Source: a virus. From it: 64,000 bases of DNA. The first letter of the stretch is position 1. Each line of letters begins with the position of its first letter. Position numbers and translations under genes: made by a program. Positions 34,281-52,628 of the stretch are shown piece by piece. Below the pieces are notes generated by a model. It saw only the letters and a list, made by a program, of their open reading frames with translations. It ran no database searches and had not been told where the DNA came from. The stretch lies in the IMG/VR virus record IMGVR_UViG_3300005288_000001, positions 108,502 to 172,501 of that record; one strand, given 5' to 3'.

Positions 34281-34863
34281 TAACATCGCCCAACTGTTAA
34301 AGAAGAATCACTATGAGCTGGCATCTATTCAAAGGAATAGTTCTATCTGGTTCGAAACTCAAGCATTCAAATTGCTGGATGTCAACGGAGTAGAAGCTAA
34401 ATCAGCGCTCCAGGGTGACGCCCGAAAGCTAAAGACTACGTTTGATTTGGGTTCAATGTACTTCTTCCTGTATGACGCGAAGCACAAAGACAAGCTCCCA
34501 TACTACGACATGTTTCCATTGGTGTTGCCATTCAGCGTGACGAAGAACGGTTTTGTTGGATTGAACCTCCACTACCTTCCTTACGACATGCGAATTCGCC
34601 TGCTATCAAAGCTACAAGAATTCCGTACCAGTAACTCGCTCACACCTCAAAGCAAACTGCGTTTTCAATGGGAAACGCTCCAGTCGGTCGCGCGCGGGAA
34701 GGGAACTAAAGCCTGCGTCAAGCAATACCTTGGTGACCACGTTGGTTCACCTTTCCGTCTTGTGCCACCGGATGATTGGGCTACCGCGTGTATGCTTCCG
34801 CTTGAACGTTTCTCGGGCAGCGACAAATTCCAAGTCTGGTCTGATTCTCTAAGAAAACTATAA
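34273..34863 (+). CDS. gp2: DNA end protector
   Basis: YDAKHKDKLPYYDMFPL..GLNLHYLP..CVKQYL..VWSDS. Confidence 0.93.
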   Translation: MADNIAQLLKKNHYELASIQRNSSIWFETQAFKLLDVNGVEAKSALQGDARKLKTTFDLGSMYFFLYDAKHKDKLPYYDMFPLVLPFSVTKNGFVGLNLHYLPYDMRIRLLSKLQEFRTSNSLTPQSKLRFQWETLQSVARGKGTKACVKQYLGDHVGSPFRLVPPDDWATACMLPLERFSGSDKFQVWSDSLRKL

Positions 34864-36014
34864 TGTCACTAAAAGACTTCATCGCTGCGTCTCGCCTAAT
34901 GGGAATCGCGAAGCCTAACCGCTTCACGGTTTACTTCCAAGCACCTAACACCCTGGCGAATGCAGGACCGTTCGCACCAAACGCGATGCAAAACATCGCT
35001 CTCTATTGCAATCGTGCTGAACTGCCAGGCATCTCAGTATCCACCACTGCAATTCGAACCACCGGTGAAGTGATGAACATCGCCTACGATCGAAACTTCG
35101 AACCGTTCTCGCTAACGTTCTACGCAGACATTGGCATGAACGCAAAGTATTTCTTCGAAGAATGGATCAATTCGATTCAGGATCGAAACGATCGCACGTT
35201 TGCCTACTATGACGACTATACTATCCCTAAGATGGTCATCGACGTAGAAACCGTAAAGAACGAGCCAACGTATCGCGTGGAAATGTACAAGGTCTTCCCT
35301 AAGTCGGTCAGCGGAGTTCAGCTTGACTACGCGAACAATGGTCTAATGGAGATTACCGTCACCTTTGAATACCGCAACTGGAAGTCCAAACAAGTTGTCG
35401 GTGGAGCTGAAACATCGTGGAGTAGTGATAGCACAGGTTTCAAGGATCGTTTCACCAATATCCAAGGCGGTCTAAGTCTGGGATTGGGCAAGTTCAACTT
35501 CCAAGGAAGTACACTAAGTCAAGTCGCTGTTCTTGGTAAGTCAGTTCTTGGTGGTGTTATTGGTCAAACCCAAGTCGCCTTCAACTCACTATCGAGCAGT
35601 ATCTCAGGTCTGTCTAATCTTATCCCTGGTGGAATGAGCACCCCTGGAATCGTTAGTTCCATTACCGGAATGGCGTCGCAGGCTCGTGGTTACGCGAACC
35701 AAACAGGCAACATGGGAATTCAACTATCTACTCCTGCGGGTATCAATATGAGTTCGTCTACTTTGACGAGCATTGGTGGTATGCTAGGGAACTTGAATAC
35801 GTCCCTTGGACCGGCTGGAGCTATTAGTAGTTCTATCGCTAACTTCAACCCTTCGTCTACGGGAGCTATCGTGTCACAACTAGGAACTATGCAGGGTCAA
35901 TTGAATAGTATTGGCTCCGCACTTGGTTCCACAAACTCGGCGATCAACGCAGGTATCCTGGTTGCTTCGCTAGGATCTAATACTGGAGTAGCCCTTAATG
36001 GCCCAAGAGGATGA
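34863..36014 (+). CDS. gp54: Baseplate tail-tube initiator (gp19/gp54 fold) with a long S/G-rich C-terminal extension
   Basis: AKPNRFTV..CNRAELPG..LTFY.D..FEEW..FPKSV..LDY..VTFEY. Confidence 0.75.
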   Translation: MSLKDFIAASRLMGIAKPNRFTVYFQAPNTLANAGPFAPNAMQNIALYCNRAELPGISVSTTAIRTTGEVMNIAYDRNFEPFSLTFYADIGMNAKYFFEEWINSIQDRNDRTFAYYDDYTIPKMVIDVETVKNEPTYRVEMYKVFPKSVSGVQLDYANNGLMEITVTFEYRNWKSKQVVGGAETSWSSDSTGFKDRFTNIQGGLSLGLGKFNFQGSTLSQVAVLGKSVLGGVIGQTQVAFNSLSSSISGLSNLIPGGMSTPGIVSSITGMASQARGYANQTGNMGIQLSTPAGINMSSSTLTSIGGMLGNLNTSLGPAGAISSSIANFNPSSTGAIVSQLGTMQGQLNSIGSALGSTNSAINAGILVASLGSNTGVALNGPRG

Positions 36015-36405
36015 TAAGCTAGACAACCCAAAGTCTCAGCACTGGATGCGATCATACTGGCGTCCGCTTATGGCGATGCAGTATCTGATCGTTTGTATTT
36101 TTGACTTCGTGGTTGCACCGATTGTATGGACAGCGTTCCAGGCATATCACCACCAAGCACTTCTAACACAATGGAATCCAACAACCTTGGGTTCCGGGGG
36201 AACTTATCACCTAGCAATGGGTGCGGTTCTTGGCGTTGCTGCCTGGACCCGTTCACTGGATAAGCAAGATGATATGATGCGTGGAGCTTATATGCGTGGC
36301 CAAAGTGGTGCCGGCATGTATGGAGGTGGCGCTGGTTATATGCCGCCTCGTCAACAACCAATGGGAGACCCACCTCCACGTAAACCACTGCAAGGTATGG
36401 AATAA
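35998..36405 (+). CDS. Holin-like protein (GTA 3-TM holin family-like)
   Basis: WMRSYWRPLMAMQYLIVCIFDF..QWNP.TL..GG.YHLAMGAVLGVAAWTRS. Confidence 0.65.
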   Translation: MAQEDDKLDNPKSQHWMRSYWRPLMAMQYLIVCIFDFVVAPIVWTAFQAYHHQALLTQWNPTTLGSGGTYHLAMGAVLGVAAWTRSLDKQDDMMRGAYMRGQSGAGMYGGGAGYMPPRQQPMGDPPPRKPLQGME

Positions 36406-36860
36406 TGACAGCACTAGATAAAAACTTGACTCAAATCTTTGACGTCGAACCTACAAAGATCGATGGTGAGTTGGTGGAAACACCTATTACGCCTATGGCA
36501 AATACGACGCCACCTGCGCCAGTCAATACTGACGATGCAGATATGGAAGCCGACTTCGAGAAGATGCGCCACAACCAAGAAGAGCTTATTCTCAAAGGTA
36601 AAATCGCCCTTGACTGCGCGCTGGACATCGTCCAACAATCTGATCAACCGCGCGCCATCGAAGTATTCTCTACTCTTCTTGGACAGCTATCTAAGATAAA
36701 CCAGGACGCGATGGACTTGCACGCAAAACGCCGTGACATTAAGAACGCTCGCCCTGAGTCTGAAGATGCTCCGAAGACCGTCAACAACAATGCTATCTTT
36801 GTTGGGACTACCTCGGAACTGAATAAGATGATTGAAAAGATGACAGGAACTAAACCCTAA
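36405..36860 (+). CDS. gp16: Terminase small subunit
   Basis: DFEKMR.N..LI.KG..A...SDQPRAIEV..L..NNNAIFVGTTSELNK, the pattern seen in non-enteric T4-like gp16. Confidence 0.8.
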   Translation: MTALDKNLTQIFDVEPTKIDGELVETPITPMANTTPPAPVNTDDADMEADFEKMRHNQEELILKGKIALDCALDIVQQSDQPRAIEVFSTLLGQLSKINQDAMDLHAKRRDIKNARPESEDAPKTVNNNAIFVGTTSELNKMIEKMTGTKP

Positions 36861-37564
36861 TGCTACCAAAGAAGTCTCCGACGATGTATGAACTGAAGGT
36901 GCCGTCAACCGGCGCCAAGATCAAATTTCGTCCCTATACGATCCGCGAAGAAAAACTGCTTATGTTGGCAGAGCAATCTGGCGAAATCGCAGTTATGGTT
37001 AACGCTCTCAAGGCAATCATCTCTGCATGTACCAACGAAAAAGTGAAGGTTGACGACCTAGCGGTCTTCGACCTAGAGTACATTATGGCCAAGCTGCGCT
37101 CAAAGTCGGTTGGGGAAACCGTGCGTCTGCAATTTGATTGCGAAGCCGACCCGAAGCATGATAAGGCAGTAGTTGATATGGACATGTCCAAGATCGAAGT
37201 TACTTTCACCGAAGGACACGATAAAGTCATCAAGTTGTATGACGACGTCGGTGTCATTATGCGTTATCCGAACATCGAGATGATGGAAGCCCTTGCAAAG
37301 ATCGAAGAAAACCCTGACGTTATCTTCGGTATCATTTATGATTGCATCGAAACCATCTTCGATAAGGAAGAGATGCACAAGGCCAATGAACAGAAGCCAG
37401 AAGAGATCGCCGAGTTTATCGACAATCTCGAGAAGGTTGAGTTCAAGAAGCTTGAAAACTTCTTCCTAACGATGCCAAAGTTTCATCACACGATTGAATA
37501 CAAGTGTCCAACGTGCGGCAAGGAACATAAGAAGTACGTAGCAGGGTTCGAGAATTTTTTCTAA
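36860..37564 (+). CDS. gp26: Baseplate hub assembly chaperone
   Basis: LPK..YELKVPSTG..KFRPY..EEK.L; FDLEYI..LRSKSVGE; FFLTMPK..CPTCG..GFENFF. Confidence 0.9.
   Translation: MLPKKSPTMYELKVPSTGAKIKFRPYTIREEKLLMLAEQSGEIAVMVNALKAIISACTNEKVKVDDLAVFDLEYIMAKLRSKSVGETVRLQFDCEADPKHDKAVVDMDMSKIEVTFTEGHDKVIKLYDDVGVIMRYPNIEMMEALAKIEENPDVIFGIIYDCIETIFDKEEMHKANEQKPEEIAEFIDNLEKVEFKKLENFFLTMPKFHHTIEYKCPTCGKEHKKYVAGFENFF
37555..37561 (+). other. Candidate -1 ribosomal frameshift site T_TTT_TTC
   Basis: X_XXY_YYZ heptamer on the last two Phe codons of gp26; the -1 frame is the gp51-like ORF. Confidence 0.65.
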
Positions 37565-37746
37565 TAGCGCTCGCGCATGAAAATCTGTTCAACTTCTACA
37601 AGACCAACTTTTCGATGATTCACCATCACGAATGGAGTCTCACTGAACTAGAGGACATGCTGCCTTTCGAGCGCGAACTTTATGTAGACATGCTTTTGAA
37701 CCATCTCGAAGAAGAACGTCAAAAACTGCAGGCTAACAAACAATAA
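37555..37746 (+). CDS. gp51: gp51-like hub assembly segment (probably reached by frameshift; first in-frame ATG at 37615)
   Basis: LAHENLFNFYKTNFSMIHHHEWSLTELEDMLPFERELYVDMLLNHLEEE; not in ORF track. Confidence 0.8.
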   Translation, partial: FFLIALAHENLFNFYKTNFSMIHHHEWSLTELEDMLPFERELYVDMLLNHLEEERQKLQANKQ

Positions 37747-37751
37747 GAACT

Positions 37752-39563
37752 ATGGATAAGATTCTCAGCCGCCGCTCAAAGATCAAGGATTACACCGACC
37801 TCAACGCGGTTAATCCTGGACGCACTATGGGGATGTACGACAATACCTGGGGTGCAGGTATGTATGGTGCATTCTACAGCCCACGTAACACCCGTCGTTT
37901 CGGCCATGGTGAAACCGCATCTAACGACGAACGTGTCGAAAAGATGCAGGCAAAGAAGGTTCAAGAAACCCTGTCTAACTCCCGTGACTACCTGCAGGAA
38001 ATCAAGACTTCGCTTACAGAGAATCTGAAGAGTATCACCCGCAGTATCCTGGGTATTCAGAATAAGGAAGATAAGCATCGCGGCAAGGGTACGATCGGCG
38101 TTGAAGACCGCGATCAAATCCTCAAGACTATTCTGGGTCAAAAGGCATATGCCACGAGTTCGCAATACAAGCGTGCGGAAAGTATCAACGCTCGTGAAGA
38201 ACTGCTACACAAGTTCAGCAAGCGAGGTATCGCTGATACGCTGTTCGGAGCACCACAACCAGGCACCGCGCGTGGAGTTCAACGTGAATACGATGATGCT
38301 CTGAAGCAATACCAACGCGATCGTATGATGCTTCAAGGAAAGCAACTGATCGAAACGTATGGTTCCAAAAGCAAGGCTGAGAAGCAGATCGCAAAGGACT
38401 TCAAGCTTCAGCAAGATATCGGTCGTCAGATCAACGATACAAATAAGGAAGTAGAACGTCGCCGCAAGGCTGGGTGGACAGATGCCGACATCAACACTCC
38501 TGAAGCCGGGAAGATGATCGACAAGCTGAACAAACTGGTCGATCAATTCGCCAAGTACGACCCAACTAACACTGGACGTTTCCTGGAACGTGACGTAGAC
38601 GCAACGAAGAAGCCGAAGGATATGGTCTTGCCGACCGAACGCTTCCGCGCCAACCAAGCAGTCTACAAGGGTGACGTTCGTGAGGATAAGGTAGGTCCAG
38701 CACCGAAGGCTCTCCTACAATCGAAGGAAGAAGCAGACCACGAGGCTGAGGAAACGCACAAGAAGGATCAGGAAGAACAAGTCAAGCAAACTAACCTCCT
38801 AGATGATATCAAGGAAGCGTTGCTGAAGAACAAGCCAGTGGAAGGTTATAGCGACGGCAAGGCCGATCCTACAAGTCTGTTTGGTGGAATCATCAAGAGC
38901 CTATCAGCCTTGGCATCTGGTCTTATGACGATCGGAAGCACGCTACTATCTTCACTAGGTGGCCTTGGCCCAATTCTTGCCAGCTTGGGCGCTGTATTGG
39001 TACCGTTGGCCGCTGCCGCTGCGCTATTGGGCCTTGGTAAAGCAGAGAAAGAAAAGATCGAAGCCAATCCGAATGCTCCGGAATATGTGGATAATGCATA
39101 CGCGATGAAGCTACGTGGTGAGGCAACGTCCGTCACACAAGGCACCAAAATCAACCAACAAAAAGCGCTCCGTAATTTGGCGCCTGGAGTTGCCAAGGAA
39201 TTGCTTGAAAACGGACAGCAAGATGAGAATGGTTTGATCGACGGCTATACGATGGACCAACTAATGGATATGCGCGACGGTAAAAAGCCATCGCATATGT
39301 CTGAGGTGCCGTTGGCTAAGAAGGCGAAATTGGAAGCAGCCCAAATCAAGTCGGTTCCGGCACAGTCCGGCGCAAAGTTGACAGAGGCTTCTACTGCCAA
39401 CGCCGACGCAAAACGAGAATCGTCAAAGGCAGCTATCAATGTAGTTGCCCCAACTACGAATAACACATCGGTATCTACCTCTGCACCGCCAGCGCCAATG
39501 GGACCTGTACGAAGTACCGAGACTTCCATGGGCGACTATGTGAAACGTCGCTACGCGAACTAA
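37752..39563 (+). CDS. Probable tape measure / hub protein (gp29-like)
   Basis: 603 aa, helical, with a hydrophobic GLG-rich segment and VVAPTTNN C-terminus; follows gp26/gp51. Confidence 0.65.
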   Translation: MDKILSRRSKIKDYTDLNAVNPGRTMGMYDNTWGAGMYGAFYSPRNTRRFGHGETASNDERVEKMQAKKVQETLSNSRDYLQEIKTSLTENLKSITRSILGIQNKEDKHRGKGTIGVEDRDQILKTILGQKAYATSSQYKRAESINAREELLHKFSKRGIADTLFGAPQPGTARGVQREYDDALKQYQRDRMMLQGKQLIETYGSKSKAEKQIAKDFKLQQDIGRQINDTNKEVERRRKAGWTDADINTPEAGKMIDKLNKLVDQFAKYDPTNTGRFLERDVDATKKPKDMVLPTERFRANQAVYKGDVREDKVGPAPKALLQSKEEADHEAEETHKKDQEEQVKQTNLLDDIKEALLKNKPVEGYSDGKADPTSLFGGIIKSLSALASGLMTIGSTLLSSLGGLGPILASLGAVLVPLAAAAALLGLGKAEKEKIEANPNAPEYVDNAYAMKLRGEATSVTQGTKINQQKALRNLAPGVAKELLENGQQDENGLIDGYTMDQLMDMRDGKKPSHMSEVPLAKKAKLEAAQIKSVPAQSGAKLTEASTANADAKRESSKAAINVVAPTTNNTSVSTSAPPAPMGPVRSTETSMGDYVKRRYAN

Positions 39564-39596: not shown

Positions 39597-39738
39597 ATGG
39601 ATTGAAAGCGTATCGGAATCCATAGTGCCAGAGATCAAGACGGATAAACCACCGTCCTTCATTCTGGCCGAAACCAAAACGAACCATTCGATTGCCTTCC
39701 GACATAGGAAGGATCTCAAAGTTCTTTACTGGTTCCAT
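39595..39738 (-). CDS. 47-aa hypothetical protein
   Basis: MEPVKNFEILP...FRYAFNP; TAATG overlap with gp32. Confidence 0.55.
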   Translation of the reverse strand: MEPVKNFEILPMSEGNRMVRFGFGQNEGRWFIRLDLWHYGFRYAFNP

Positions 39739-40643
39739 TAGTCTTCCTCAGCCAGGCCACGGAAAAAGGCCAGGCTATCGTCATCATCATCCGAGACTTC
39801 TGCAGGCGCTGCCTTGGAAGGCTTTGCTGGAGCAGGTGCCGCACGAGCTGGTGCCGGAGCAGCCGCTGATGGCAGGTCTTCCTTATCAGCCGCACGATCA
39901 GCCGGAGCCGATTCGTTCATGACCGACAGGTACTTTGCCTTCAGTTCGTCATACGACTTGAACTTCGATGGATCAACGAACTCTTCGAGCTTGATGATGT
40001 TCTGAGCGATCTTCAGAATTTCCTCGTCATCACCGAGTGGTGCTGGCTCTGCGAACAGCGAACTGTCGTAGTTAGGGAACCCTTCAACCTTCTTCATACG
40101 CAGCTTGAAGTCCGCGCCATCCCAATAGTCGAACACGTTAACTGGCGTTTCGTCAGCGAACGTTGGTTGTGCCTTGTCCATAATCTTGTCGAAGATCTTC
40201 TTGCCGAACTTGAACAGCTTCACTTGCCCTTCGTTCTCAGGGTGCTTCGGATCGCTGATGATCAAGACATTGGCAATGTACTGGAGCTTTCGCTTCTGCT
40301 TTTGCGCAATCTTCTTGTTTTCTTCGACGCCGGAGTTCCAGAGCTTCGAGTTTTGTTCTCCAACATAGTCAGTCAGACCGATGGTCGACAGCGAGTTTTC
40401 GATATACCACTTTCCACCAGGACCTTGGAAAGCATGGCTGAAAACCTTGACCCATGGAAGGCCATCGCCAGTTACGTTGAGGAAGCGAATCGTTGCAGAA
40501 GCGTTACCTGCCTTGTCAGCCTCAAGCTTCCAAAAGCGGTCGTCCTTGTACGATCCTTGGCCGGGGTTGGCGATCTTGTCGAAAGCCGTTGCGATCTTAG
40601 CAAAAGATTGGCCGCGCATTTTACGGAGTGTATTAATATCCAT
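39738..40643 (-). CDS. gp32: Single-stranded DNA-binding protein
   Basis: DDRFWKL..DKAGN..IRFL; GKWYIENSL.T; HPENEGQV.LFKFGKKIFDK; acidic tail. Confidence 0.96.
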   Translation of the reverse strand: MDINTLRKMRGQSFAKIATAFDKIANPGQGSYKDDRFWKLEADKAGNASATIRFLNVTGDGLPWVKVFSHAFQGPGGKWYIENSLSTIGLTDYVGEQNSKLWNSGVEENKKIAQKQKRKLQYIANVLIISDPKHPENEGQVKLFKFGKKIFDKIMDKAQPTFADETPVNVFDYWDGADFKLRMKKVEGFPNYDSSLFAEPAPLGDDEEILKIAQNIIKLEEFVDPSKFKSYDELKAKYLSVMNESAPADRAADKEDLPSAAAPAPARAAPAPAKPSKAAPAEVSDDDDDSLAFFRGLAEED

Positions 40644-52565: not shown

Positions 52566-52603
52566 GCCCAATTTGAATTTTTTTCAAACGAGCTCTTATG
52601 GTG

Positions 52604-52628
52604 AAAAGGGCGCTTGAGGCGCCCTTAT
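52604..52628 (-). terminator. Intrinsic terminator
   Basis: AAGGGCGC-CTCAA-GCGCCCTTTT. Confidence 0.7.

What the first reader, a model, noticed from the sequence alone, without database searches (positions are those of the whole stretch)
37531..37752. Lambda G/GT-style -1 frameshift joining gp26 to gp51, immediately before the tape measure gene
Seen: gp26 ends GAG AAT TTT TTC TAA. The heptamer T_TTT_TTC (37555-37561) fits X_XXY_YYZ. The -1 frame continues LIALAHENLFNFYKTNFSMIHHHEWSLTELEDMLPFERELY to 37746. That frame has a stop at 37528 and no ATG until 37615, which would cut off the gp51-like ENLFNFYKTNF segment, and no clear RBS precedes it. Known: long-tailed phages make two tail-assembly chaperones by programmed frameshift just upstream of the tape measure gene, while T4 genes 26 and 51 are treated as separate genes. 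Inference: in this lineage gp26 and gp26-51 are the G and GT equivalents.
Basis: partly seen in the sequence, partly recalled or inferred. Interest (0 to 1): 0.8.

Follow-up and report, generated by a model that had tools for sequence, protein, structure and literature searches.

The report
Frameshift in T4-like tail chaperone gene
One tail-assembly gene of this complete 172.5-kb uncultured T4-like phage very probably makes a 234-residue and a 295-residue protein, because some ribosomes slip back one base on a strictly conserved TTTTTTC; phage T4, named in reviews as the exception to this tail-chaperone frameshift, makes the same pair from two separate genes (26 and 51).

Summary
The gp26-like gene (36860-37564, PF12322) ends AAT TTT TTC TAA TAG. 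The -1 frame is open only from 37531. It has no ATG/GTG/TTG before 37615 and encodes a 61-residue gp51-like tail.

Evidence for a programmed -1 ribosomal frameshift:
- 87 of 88 homologous junctions keep NNT TTT TTY in the same phase. Only 8% of Phe-Phe pairs elsewhere in those loci are written that way.
- TTTTTTY occurs at only three places in the whole genome.
- The tail is conserved right up to the slip site.
- The predicted 295-aa fusion is collinear with T4 gp51, which is a gp26-like domain plus this tail in one frame.
- T4 and AB-Navy4 have two PF12322 genes and no heptamer. The window and seven others have one gene plus the heptamer; Klebsiella phage Croc has one gene and a variant site.
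- The modelled gp26 N-domain best matches three solved tail assembly chaperones.

Open points: no protein data exist, the window has no stimulatory RNA structure, and the downstream 603-aa ORF is a tape measure only by position and size. I found no paper or database record reporting the slip. This scan has already flagged the same arrangement on more than 130 other genomes.

The parts
36860..37564 (+). gp26-like baseplate-hub/tail assembly chaperone gene in the 0 frame: 234 aa plus a UAA stop. This is the short, presumably major, product.
   Evidence: PF12322 T4_baseplate E 1.5e-56; phrog_150 E 3.5e-61. It is the only PF12322 match in the complete genome. The AF2 model has pLDDT 91.9.
36860..37138 (+). 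N-terminal domain (residues ~1-93) with a tail-assembly-chaperone-like fold.
37543..37546 (+). Weak Shine-Dalgarno-like AGGG, 8 nt before the heptamer; a possible 5' stimulator.
   Evidence: An SD-like 4-mer lies at -15 to -11 in 76 of 87 loci, against 18% of background windows. It is confounded with conserved Glu-Gly codons, so this is inference only.
37528..37530 (+). TAA that closes the -1 frame 8 codons upstream of the heptamer.
   Evidence: No start codon lies between it and the heptamer.
37555..37561 (+). Slippery heptamer U_UUU_UUC. Both tRNA-Phe can re-pair one base back.
   Evidence: NNT TTT TTY is present in the same phase in 87 of 88 junctions. Both synonymous positions are 100% T, against 29-65% at other wobble sites. 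Only 8.3% of other Phe-Phe pairs are written this way.
37562..37567 (+). Tandem 0-frame stops UAA UAG directly 3' of the heptamer. They end the short product and are a possible pausing element.
   Evidence: The stop lies 0, 1, 3, 8 or 9 codons after the heptamer in relatives, so its position is not the conserved feature.
37561..37746 (+). -1 frame gp51-like tail: 61 codons (37561-37743) plus a UAA stop. Joined to gp26 it gives the 295-aa long product, join(36860..37561,37561..37746).
   Evidence: phrog_634 'baseplate hub assembly catalyst' E 2e-25, matching from the heptamer onward. It is the only such match in the genome. The tail is 56-69 aa in 85 of 85 complete relatives. A BLASTP alignment of the fusion with T4 gp51 spans the junction.
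37615..37617 (+). First ATG of the -1 frame (tail residue 19). This is the start an annotator would pick.
   Evidence: Starting here would omit the invariant F17 and the near-invariant L4, H6, L9 and N16 of the tail alignment A5. No SD sequence precedes it.
37752..39563 (+). 603-aa ORF, the probable tape measure (gp29-equivalent). Inferred, not shown.
   Evidence: No Pfam or PHROG hit; hhalign against T4 gp29 E 0.23. Supporting leads: size (T4 gp29 is 590 aa), position, a Gly/Ala/Leu-rich hydrophobic stretch, Atlas feature score 0.90 to PF25671 T4_Tape_measure, and the phiN3 positional equivalent hitting tape-measure PHROGs at 4e-5.

Best explanation
Programmed -1 ribosomal frameshifting in a tail-assembly-chaperone gene. 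Ribosomes translating the gp26-like gene reach AAU UUU UUC (37553-37561). With tRNA-Phe on UUU in the P site and on UUC in the A site, both can re-pair one base back (UUU UUU). Most ribosomes do not slip and terminate at UAA 37562, giving the 234-aa protein. A minority slip and read 61 further codons in the -1 frame to UAA 37744, giving a 295-aa protein: the same body plus a conserved helical tail. Shown here: the signal, its extreme conservation, the lack of any other route to the conserved tail N-terminus, and the equivalence of the fusion to T4 gp51. Inferred: by analogy with lambda G/GT and P2 E/E+E', and from T4 genetics (gp26 and gp51 are non-virion hub assembly chaperones), the shared TAC-fold body binds the tape-measure/hub protein. 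The tail on the minor form supplies a second contact needed to start hub and tube assembly. The frameshift fixes the ratio of the two forms. T4 and its closest kin replaced the slip with two paralogous genes.
For: (1) Sequence: heptamer, phase, stops and absence of starts. (2) 87 of 88 junctions from phages 24-45% identical in gp26 keep NNT TTT TTY. The preceding codon is AGT, GAT, AAT, TCT or GCT, always T-ending although the amino acid varies. Other Phe-Phe pairs in the same loci are written that way in 48 of 581 cases. (3) T runs of 6 or more are about 10-fold depleted in this genome, yet one is kept here. (4) The -1 tail is 56-69 aa in 85 of 85 loci and more conserved than gp26 itself (57% against 46% mean column identity). 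Its conserved residues begin 4 codons after the slip. The first ATG is 14-19 codons in for 64 of 87 loci. (5) The 0-frame stop lies 0 to 9 codons after a fixed heptamer. Where it lies 8-9 codons later, the -1 frame is the conserved one. (6) T4 gp51 is PF12322 (residues 2-200) plus this tail (phrog_634, E 1e-23). One BLASTP alignment (fusion 187-288 against gp51 156-249, E 1e-6) crosses the junction with no indel there. (7) Either/or pattern in 11 complete genomes. T4 and AB-Navy4 have 2 PF12322 genes and no heptamer in gp26 or gp51. The window, Syn9, PX29, K566, Cr30, Moby, OLIVR5 and phiN3 have 1 gene plus the heptamer and -1 tail. Croc has 1 gene and a -1 tail behind a variant ATT TTC site. 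(8) The gp26 N-domain has a TAC fold. (9) Precedent: P2 E/E+E' slips on TTTTTTG without a hairpin (PMC3091744).
Confidence: 0.85

Rival explanations
1. Two separate genes. A small gp51 (43 aa from ATG 37615, or ~60 aa from a non-AUG codon such as AUA 37564 or CUG) is translated on its own, by coupling or reinitiation after gp26 terminates. The T run is only a by-product of the conserved Phe-Phe.
For: Every GenBank record I inspected annotates the pair as separate genes or omits the tail. K566, Cr30 and Moby have an ATG overlapping the gp26 stop. 13 of 87 loci have an ATG within 3 codons of the slip site.
Against: The window has no ATG/GTG/TTG for 18 codons and no SD sequence. ATG 37615 would delete the invariant F17 and four near-invariant residues. 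The two synonymous T positions are invariant even in lineages that do have an ATG. The stop position varies while the heptamer does not. T4 shows that the tail works as the C-terminus of a gp26-like domain.
Confidence: 0.08
2. The same fusion protein is made by RNA-polymerase slippage: one extra U is inserted on the T run, rather than the ribosome slipping.
For: An insertion of one U would put the tail in frame. 36 of 87 relatives have runs of 7-8 T. Many metagenome gene calls show the fusion in a single frame, which could reflect run-length heterogeneity.
Against: The window and 50 other loci have only T6 followed by C, which from my own knowledge is shorter than the runs usually needed for bacterial RNAP slippage. 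The run always starts at codon position 3, the phase that tandem tRNA slippage needs and polymerase slippage does not. Several of the in-frame calls shift upstream of the run, which points to assembly indels.
Confidence: 0.05
3. Artefact or decay: a homopolymer sequencing error, or a recent frameshift mutation, in what is really a single 295-aa gene.
For: Homopolymer runs are error-prone, and single-frame versions exist in the protein database.
Against: The same two-frame layout appears in 87 independent assemblies, including finished isolate genomes. This genome is complete with terminal repeats.
Confidence: 0.01

Closest known systems
Phage T4 gp26 (208 aa) and gp51 (249 aa), hub assembly chaperones (Leiman et al. 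2010, PMC3004832, Table 2)
   Same: They belong to the same family (PF12322). T4 gp26 ends 3 residues after its FF, like the short product. T4 gp51 is the domain plus the same tail, collinear with the predicted long product. Neither is a virion component and both are needed for hub assembly.
   Different: T4 encodes them as two divergently transcribed paralogous genes with no slippery site. Here a single gene and a frameshift would make both.
Lambda gpG/gpGT and the conserved -1 frameshift of tail assembly chaperone genes (Xu, Hendrix and Duda 2004; Atkins et al. 2016, PMC5009743)
   Same: Short and long forms share an N-terminal body. A -1 slip on a heptamer occurs near the end of the upstream ORF. 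The downstream ORF has no start. The N-domain has a TAC fold (top hits include HK97 TAC 2OB9). The gene lies directly upstream of a tape-measure-sized gene.
   Different: The chaperone is about twice as large, with extra domains after the TAC-like ~90 residues. The slip site abuts the stop codon. The gene is not flanked by the tube gene in this window. The review states the frameshift is conserved 'except T4'.
Phage P2 E / E+E' (Christie et al. 2002; described in PMC3091744)
   Same: P2 is a contractile-tailed phage. Its slip site TTTTTTG is nearly identical to the one here, it has no downstream hairpin, and it makes 91-aa and 142-aa products from one start.
   Different: There is no detectable sequence similarity, and the P2 chaperone is far smaller.

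Membership tests
Conserved -1 frameshift of tail assembly chaperone genes (lambda G/GT type) | Two overlapping ORFs, with the downstream one in the -1 frame and lacking its own start | tested here: met
   The -1 frame is open only from 37531, and the first ATG/GTG/TTG is at 37615, tail residue 19.
Conserved -1 frameshift of tail assembly chaperone genes (lambda G/GT type) | An X_XXY_YYZ heptamer in 0-frame phase, conserved among relatives | tested here: met
   T_TTT_TTC at 37555-61. Present in 87 of 88 junctions, with synonymous positions 100% T, against 8.3% for other Phe-Phe pairs.
Conserved -1 frameshift of tail assembly chaperone genes (lambda G/GT type) | The upstream ORF has the tail-assembly-chaperone fold | tested here: met
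Conserved -1 frameshift of tail assembly chaperone genes (lambda G/GT type) | Located between the tail tube gene and the tape measure gene | tested here: inconclusive
   The downstream 603-aa ORF is tape-measure-like only by size, position and weak leads. A tube-like gene (34863-36014) lies upstream but is separated by a membrane protein gene and the small terminase gene.
Conserved -1 frameshift of tail assembly chaperone genes (lambda G/GT type) | Both products are made in a fixed ratio, both are required, and neither is in the virion | not testable with these tools
   This needs protein work. T4 gp51 is required but absent from the particle.
PF12322 T4_baseplate (gp26/gp51 family) | A profile match over the curated cut-off | tested here: met
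   192 bits against a cut-off of 24.5, E 1.5e-56, covering profile positions 4-218 of 219.
T4 gp51-type long form | A PF12322 domain followed in the same polypeptide by the phrog_634 tail | tested here: met
   Met only by the frameshift fusion. The BLASTP alignment crosses the junction without an indel, and the genome holds no other copy of either part.
Programmed transcriptional slippage | A long homopolymer run (from my own knowledge, usually 8-9 or more) whose reading phase is irrelevant | tested here: not met
   The run is T6 here and in 50 other loci, and the phase is invariant.
T4 gp29 tape measure (phrog_1283 / PF25671), for ORF 37752-39563 | Significant sequence or profile similarity | tested here: inconclusive
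   No PHROG or Pfam hit; hhalign E 0.23; Atlas feature score 0.90 is a lead only.

The most novel reading that the evidence does not exclude
The gp26/gp26-51 pair is a true homologue, not merely an analogue, of the lambda G/GT and P2 E/E+E' tail assembly chaperones, and it acts on the gp29-like tape measure. The slip would then be ancestral to the whole T4 superfamily, found here in Kyanoviridae, Schizotequatrovirus, Angelvirus, Pootjesviridae, phiM12-like, Cr30 and Moby-like phages. T4's long-mysterious 'catalytic' gp51 would simply be the GT form, fixed as a separate gene after a duplication. The tail-chaperone frameshift of long-tailed phages would then have no real exception.
Probability: 0.5. 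Interest if true: 0.8.

Novelty: new member of a known kind. Interest (0 to 1): 0.7.

Why it matters
The -1 frameshift in tail assembly chaperone genes is textbook for long-tailed phages, with T4 named as the exception (PMC5009743). These data indicate that most T4-like lineages do have it, in the gp26 gene. They also indicate that T4's gp26 and gp51 are the same short/long pair split into two genes. [quoted passage not shown] It identifies the likely chaperones of the T4-type tape measure. It also means gp51 is mis-annotated, with a wrong start or missing altogether, in hundreds of cyanophage, vibriophage and other T4-like genomes. For this window it is one clean instance: a complete genome, a single gene copy, and no alternative start.

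Tried and rejected
- **DNA searches that found nothing.** blastn of the region against phage records gave no match. Single-protein locus searches found no close relative in viral contigs or metagenome contigs. Alignment A1 was too diverse to search with.
- I therefore could not fetch the junction in the window's own clade (relatives P0002-P0007) or the DNA behind the single-frame proteins.
- **Downstream RNA structure.** None is significant in the window. Across the loci the mean z is -1.0, with 18 of 86 below -2, so I do not claim a 3' stimulator here.
- **Tape measure.** A profile of the 603-aa ORF against T4 gp29 gave E 0.23. I do not claim homology.
- **Foldseek against PDB for gp26.** Nothing reached E 1e-3. 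The TAC link rests on the VIA-align wide search.
- **Tail profile against PDB sequences.** The only hits were chance-level matches to HIV gp41 heptad repeats, which share a WEREI-type helix (E 0.007 or worse). I reject these as homology.
- **gp26 profile against PDB sequences.** Chance-level hits only.
- **Tree of PF12322 domains.** The T4-type gp26 and gp51 clades are long branches in an unresolved node, so the order of duplication is not shown.
- **PF28602.** This family is attached to the tail in precomputed annotations but is not in the local Pfam copy.
- **P0096.** IMG/VR relatives of this single-frame protein are only ~35% identical, and all are two-frame.
- **Fold of the in-frame analogue P0024.** The tail forms three helices at pLDDT 61-84. 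This is too uncertain to say where it docks.
- **Other slippery candidates in the window.** They are ordinary gene overlaps or have short -1 frames.
- **Literature.** Nine searches found no paper reporting the slip.
Full report
**The observation**

An ORF at 36860-37564 encodes a 234-residue protein of Pfam family PF12322 'T4_baseplate' (E 1.5e-56). It ends GAG AAT TTT TTC TAA TAG.

The T run is 37555-37560. T_TTT_TTC (37555-37561) is an X_XXY_YYZ heptamer in the phase of the gene.

The -1 frame is closed by TAA at 37528-30. It then runs through the heptamer for 61 more codons (37561-37743; stop at 37744-46). It has no ATG, GTG or TTG before the ATG at 37615.

That -1 peptide matches PHROG 634 'baseplate hub assembly catalyst' (E 2e-25), and the match starts at the heptamer.

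The window is the last 64 kb of a complete 172,501-bp virus record with direct terminal repeats.

**Is it more than chance?**

- TTTTTTY is strongly avoided in this phage. There are 3 matches at 2 places in the window on both strands, against 27.3 +/- 6.5 in shuffles.
- There are only 3 places in the whole genome. One is intergenic beside a terminator-like hairpin. One lies in a region of small ORFs and is not in slippery phase. The third is this junction.

**Comparative test**

I collected 88 homologous junctions. They comprise the window, 8 isolate phages taken from tblastn hits, and 79 uncultured viral contigs that are 32-45% identical in gp26.

- 87 of the 88 have NNT TTT TTY at the conserved Phe-Phe in the same phase: TTTTTTC in 51 and TTTTTTT in 36.
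- The codon before Phe-Phe is AGT, GAT, AAT, TCT or GCT. The amino acid changes but the third base is always T.
- Position by position, the two synonymous sites of the heptamer are 100% T. Other 0-frame wobble sites upstream are 29-65% conserved.
- In long ORFs of the same loci, only 48 of 581 other Phe-Phe pairs (8.3%) are written NNT TTT TTY.
- The junctions are related, so they are not independent trials. Even so, there are 86 distinct sequence contexts.

**The -1 frame is coding from the slip site onward**

- The tail is 56-69 residues in all 85 loci that are not cut by a contig end.
- It is more conserved than gp26 itself: mean column identity 57% against 46%.
- F17 is invariant and L4, H6, L9 and N16 are near-invariant. 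All five lie before the window's first ATG, which is residue 19.
- In 64 of 87 loci the first ATG is 14-19 codons in. Only 13 have one within three codons.
- Only 5 loci have any start codon in the short open stretch before the heptamer.
- The 0-frame stop lies 0, 1, 3, 8 or 9 codons after the heptamer.
- Where the stop lies 8-9 codons later, the conserved reading is the -1 one. The fixed point is therefore the heptamer, not the stop. This argues against simple termination-reinitiation.

**What T4 does**

- In T4, genes 26 and 51 are divergently transcribed.
- T4 gp26 (208 aa) is PF12322 alone and ends three residues after its Phe-Phe.
- T4 gp51 (249 aa) is PF12322 over residues 2-200, followed by a C-terminal tail that matches PHROG 634 (E 1e-23).
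- I built the predicted 295-residue fusion in a script. One BLASTP alignment (fusion 187-288 against gp51 156-249, E 1e-6) crosses the junction with no indel there..NFF|LIALAHENLFNFY.. against ..DVF|KLLVNPDEIFTFY...
- T4 gp26 writes its Phe-Phe as TTC TTT. Neither T4 gp51 nor the gp26 and gp51 of Acinetobacter phage AB-Navy4 has a heptamer.

**An either/or rule in 11 complete genomes**

| Genomes | PF12322 genes | Heptamer |
|---|---|---|
| T4, AB-Navy4 | 2 | none |
| This phage, Syn9, Aeromonas PX29, Vibrio K566, Caulobacter Cr30, Stenotrophomonas Moby, Agrobacterium OLIVR5, Sinorhizobium phiN3 | 1, plus the -1 tail | present |
| Klebsiella Croc (Ackermannviridae) | 1, plus a -1 tail | variant site, ATT TTC only |

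In this phage, a gp51-like protein can only arise by joining the two frames.

A tree of the domains does not resolve whether T4's two genes are sister paralogs. The duplication scenario is therefore an inference.

**Is gp26 a tail assembly chaperone?**

- An AlphaFold2 model of the window's gp26, built with a 47-sequence alignment, is confident (pLDDT 91.9, pTM 0.87).
- Foldseek against the PDB found nothing significant.
- An exhaustive structural alignment against 48,161 PDB representatives gave these top three hits for residues ~1-93:
- The p2 ORF12 chaperone (3d8l) appears lower in the list.
- T4 gp26 and gp51 are listed as 'hub assembly chaperones', and gp51 is absent from the particle (PMC3004832).

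**Mechanism in this window**

- U_UUU_UUC lets both tRNA-Phe re-pair one base back.
- I found no significant RNA structure downstream (z +0.5 to +0.7).
- The possible stimulators are weak:
  - an AGGG 8 nt upstream. An SD-like 4-mer sits at -15 to -11 in 76 of 87 loci against 18% of background windows, but it overlaps conserved Glu-Gly codons.
  - the UAA UAG stops directly 3' of the site.
- This resembles P2 E/E+E', which slips on TTTTTTG without a hairpin (PMC3091744).
- The efficiency is unknown.
- RNA-polymerase slippage is a minor rival. The run is only six T here and in 50 other loci, and its phase is invariant.

**The downstream gene**

- ORF 37752-39563 (603 aa) has no Pfam or PHROG match, and a profile comparison with T4 gp29 gives E 0.23.
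- Several leads make 'tape measure' a reasonable inference that is not demonstrated:
  - its size (T4 gp29 is 590 aa)
  - its position
  - its hydrophobic Gly/Ala/Leu stretch
  - a language-model feature score of 0.90 to PF25671 T4_Tape_measure
  - tape-measure PHROG hits (4e-5) for the positionally equivalent phiN3 protein

**Single-frame versions**

- A search with the tail profile for longer proteins found 238 hits.
- Many are 290-306 residues and carry PF12322 plus a tail family (PF28602) in one frame.
- Some junctions equal the predicted slip product.
- Others enter the -1 frame several codons upstream. For example, WTKRFF is the -1 reading of GLNDFF, which indicates assembly indels.
- Most are singletons.
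- Two groups may be genuine in-frame lineages: P0082/P0087/P0096 and P0109/P0111. I could not reach their DNA.
- A model of one such protein, P0024, shows the tail as three helices of moderate confidence.

**Novelty**

- Nine full-text searches found no paper reporting a gp26/gp51 slip.
- None of about 20 GenBank records I inspected joins the two ORFs.
- The subscription literature is not covered by these searches.
- This scan has already noted the same arrangement on more than 130 other genomes. I reached my reading before seeing those notes and tested it independently.

**Verdict**

This is a real and strongly conserved recoding signal. It is very probably a programmed -1 ribosomal frameshift that makes a short and a long form of a tail/hub assembly chaperone. 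It is a new member of the known G/GT kind, in the one phage group said to lack it. It still awaits any direct protein evidence.

Noticed in passing
window 34863-36014 (+): A tail-tube-like protein (phrog_45 E 1e-41; PF23849) of 383 aa. Its C-terminal ~170 residues are a Ser/Gly/Leu/Asn-rich low-complexity extension, which is unusual for a gp19-type tube protein.
   Followed up: no
window 35998-36405 (+) and 36405-36860 (+): A 135-aa membrane protein with weak holin-like matches (phrog_3427, 3.5e-5) and the small terminase subunit gene sit between the tube-like gene and gp26. The terminase stop overlaps the gp26 start (TAATG at 36858-36862). The gp32-like ssDNA-binding protein gene (39738-40643, minus strand) follows the 603-aa ORF. 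This gene order is quite unlike T4's.
   Followed up: no
window, whole; genome G000: Runs of six or more T are about 10-fold depleted: 2 places in 64 kb against ~27 matches expected, and 3 places in 172.5 kb. This suggests genome-wide selection against slippery homopolymers.
   Followed up: partly
window 52578-52585 and 52604-52626: The only other T run (T7C) in the window is intergenic. It lies just upstream of a GC-rich inverted repeat (GGGCGC..GCGCCC) that looks like a terminator.
   Followed up: partly
L091:3280-3300 (Klebsiella phage Croc) and L092:3226-3246 (E. coli phage ZQ1), Ackermannviridae: gp26 ends GAG/GAA ATT TTC ATT TAA, so there are only four Ts and no canonical heptamer. A gp51-like tail still follows in the -1 frame, and in Croc it has no start codon near its conserved N-terminus. 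This may be a different, single-tRNA slip site.
   Followed up: partly
L053, L069, L080 (IMG/VR contigs): The gp26 0 frame runs 8-9 codons past the heptamer, so the two frames overlap there. The conserved reading in the overlap is the -1 frame.
   Followed up: partly
proteins P0082, P0087, P0096; P0109, P0111: Proteins of 299-303 aa carry the gp26 domain and the tail in a single frame and are seen in more than one source or contig. They may be lineages that, like T4 gp51, fixed the fusion. Many other single-frame calls look like assembly indels.
   Followed up: partly
window 37505-37516 (gp26 residues 216-219) and alignment A1: A C-P-x-C-G motif near the gp26 C-terminus, together with a conserved Cys near residue 93, is kept in the window, K566, Moby and T4 gp26 but replaced by N-P-x-T-G in cyanophages. 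This could be a zinc-binding site that some lineages lost.
   Followed up: no
G000:C1:35638-35644 (L101:1039-1045): This is the third TTTTTTC of the genome. It lies in a region of small ORFs, and in the one long ORF there it reads CGC TTT TTT CAT, which is not the slippery phase.
   Followed up: partly
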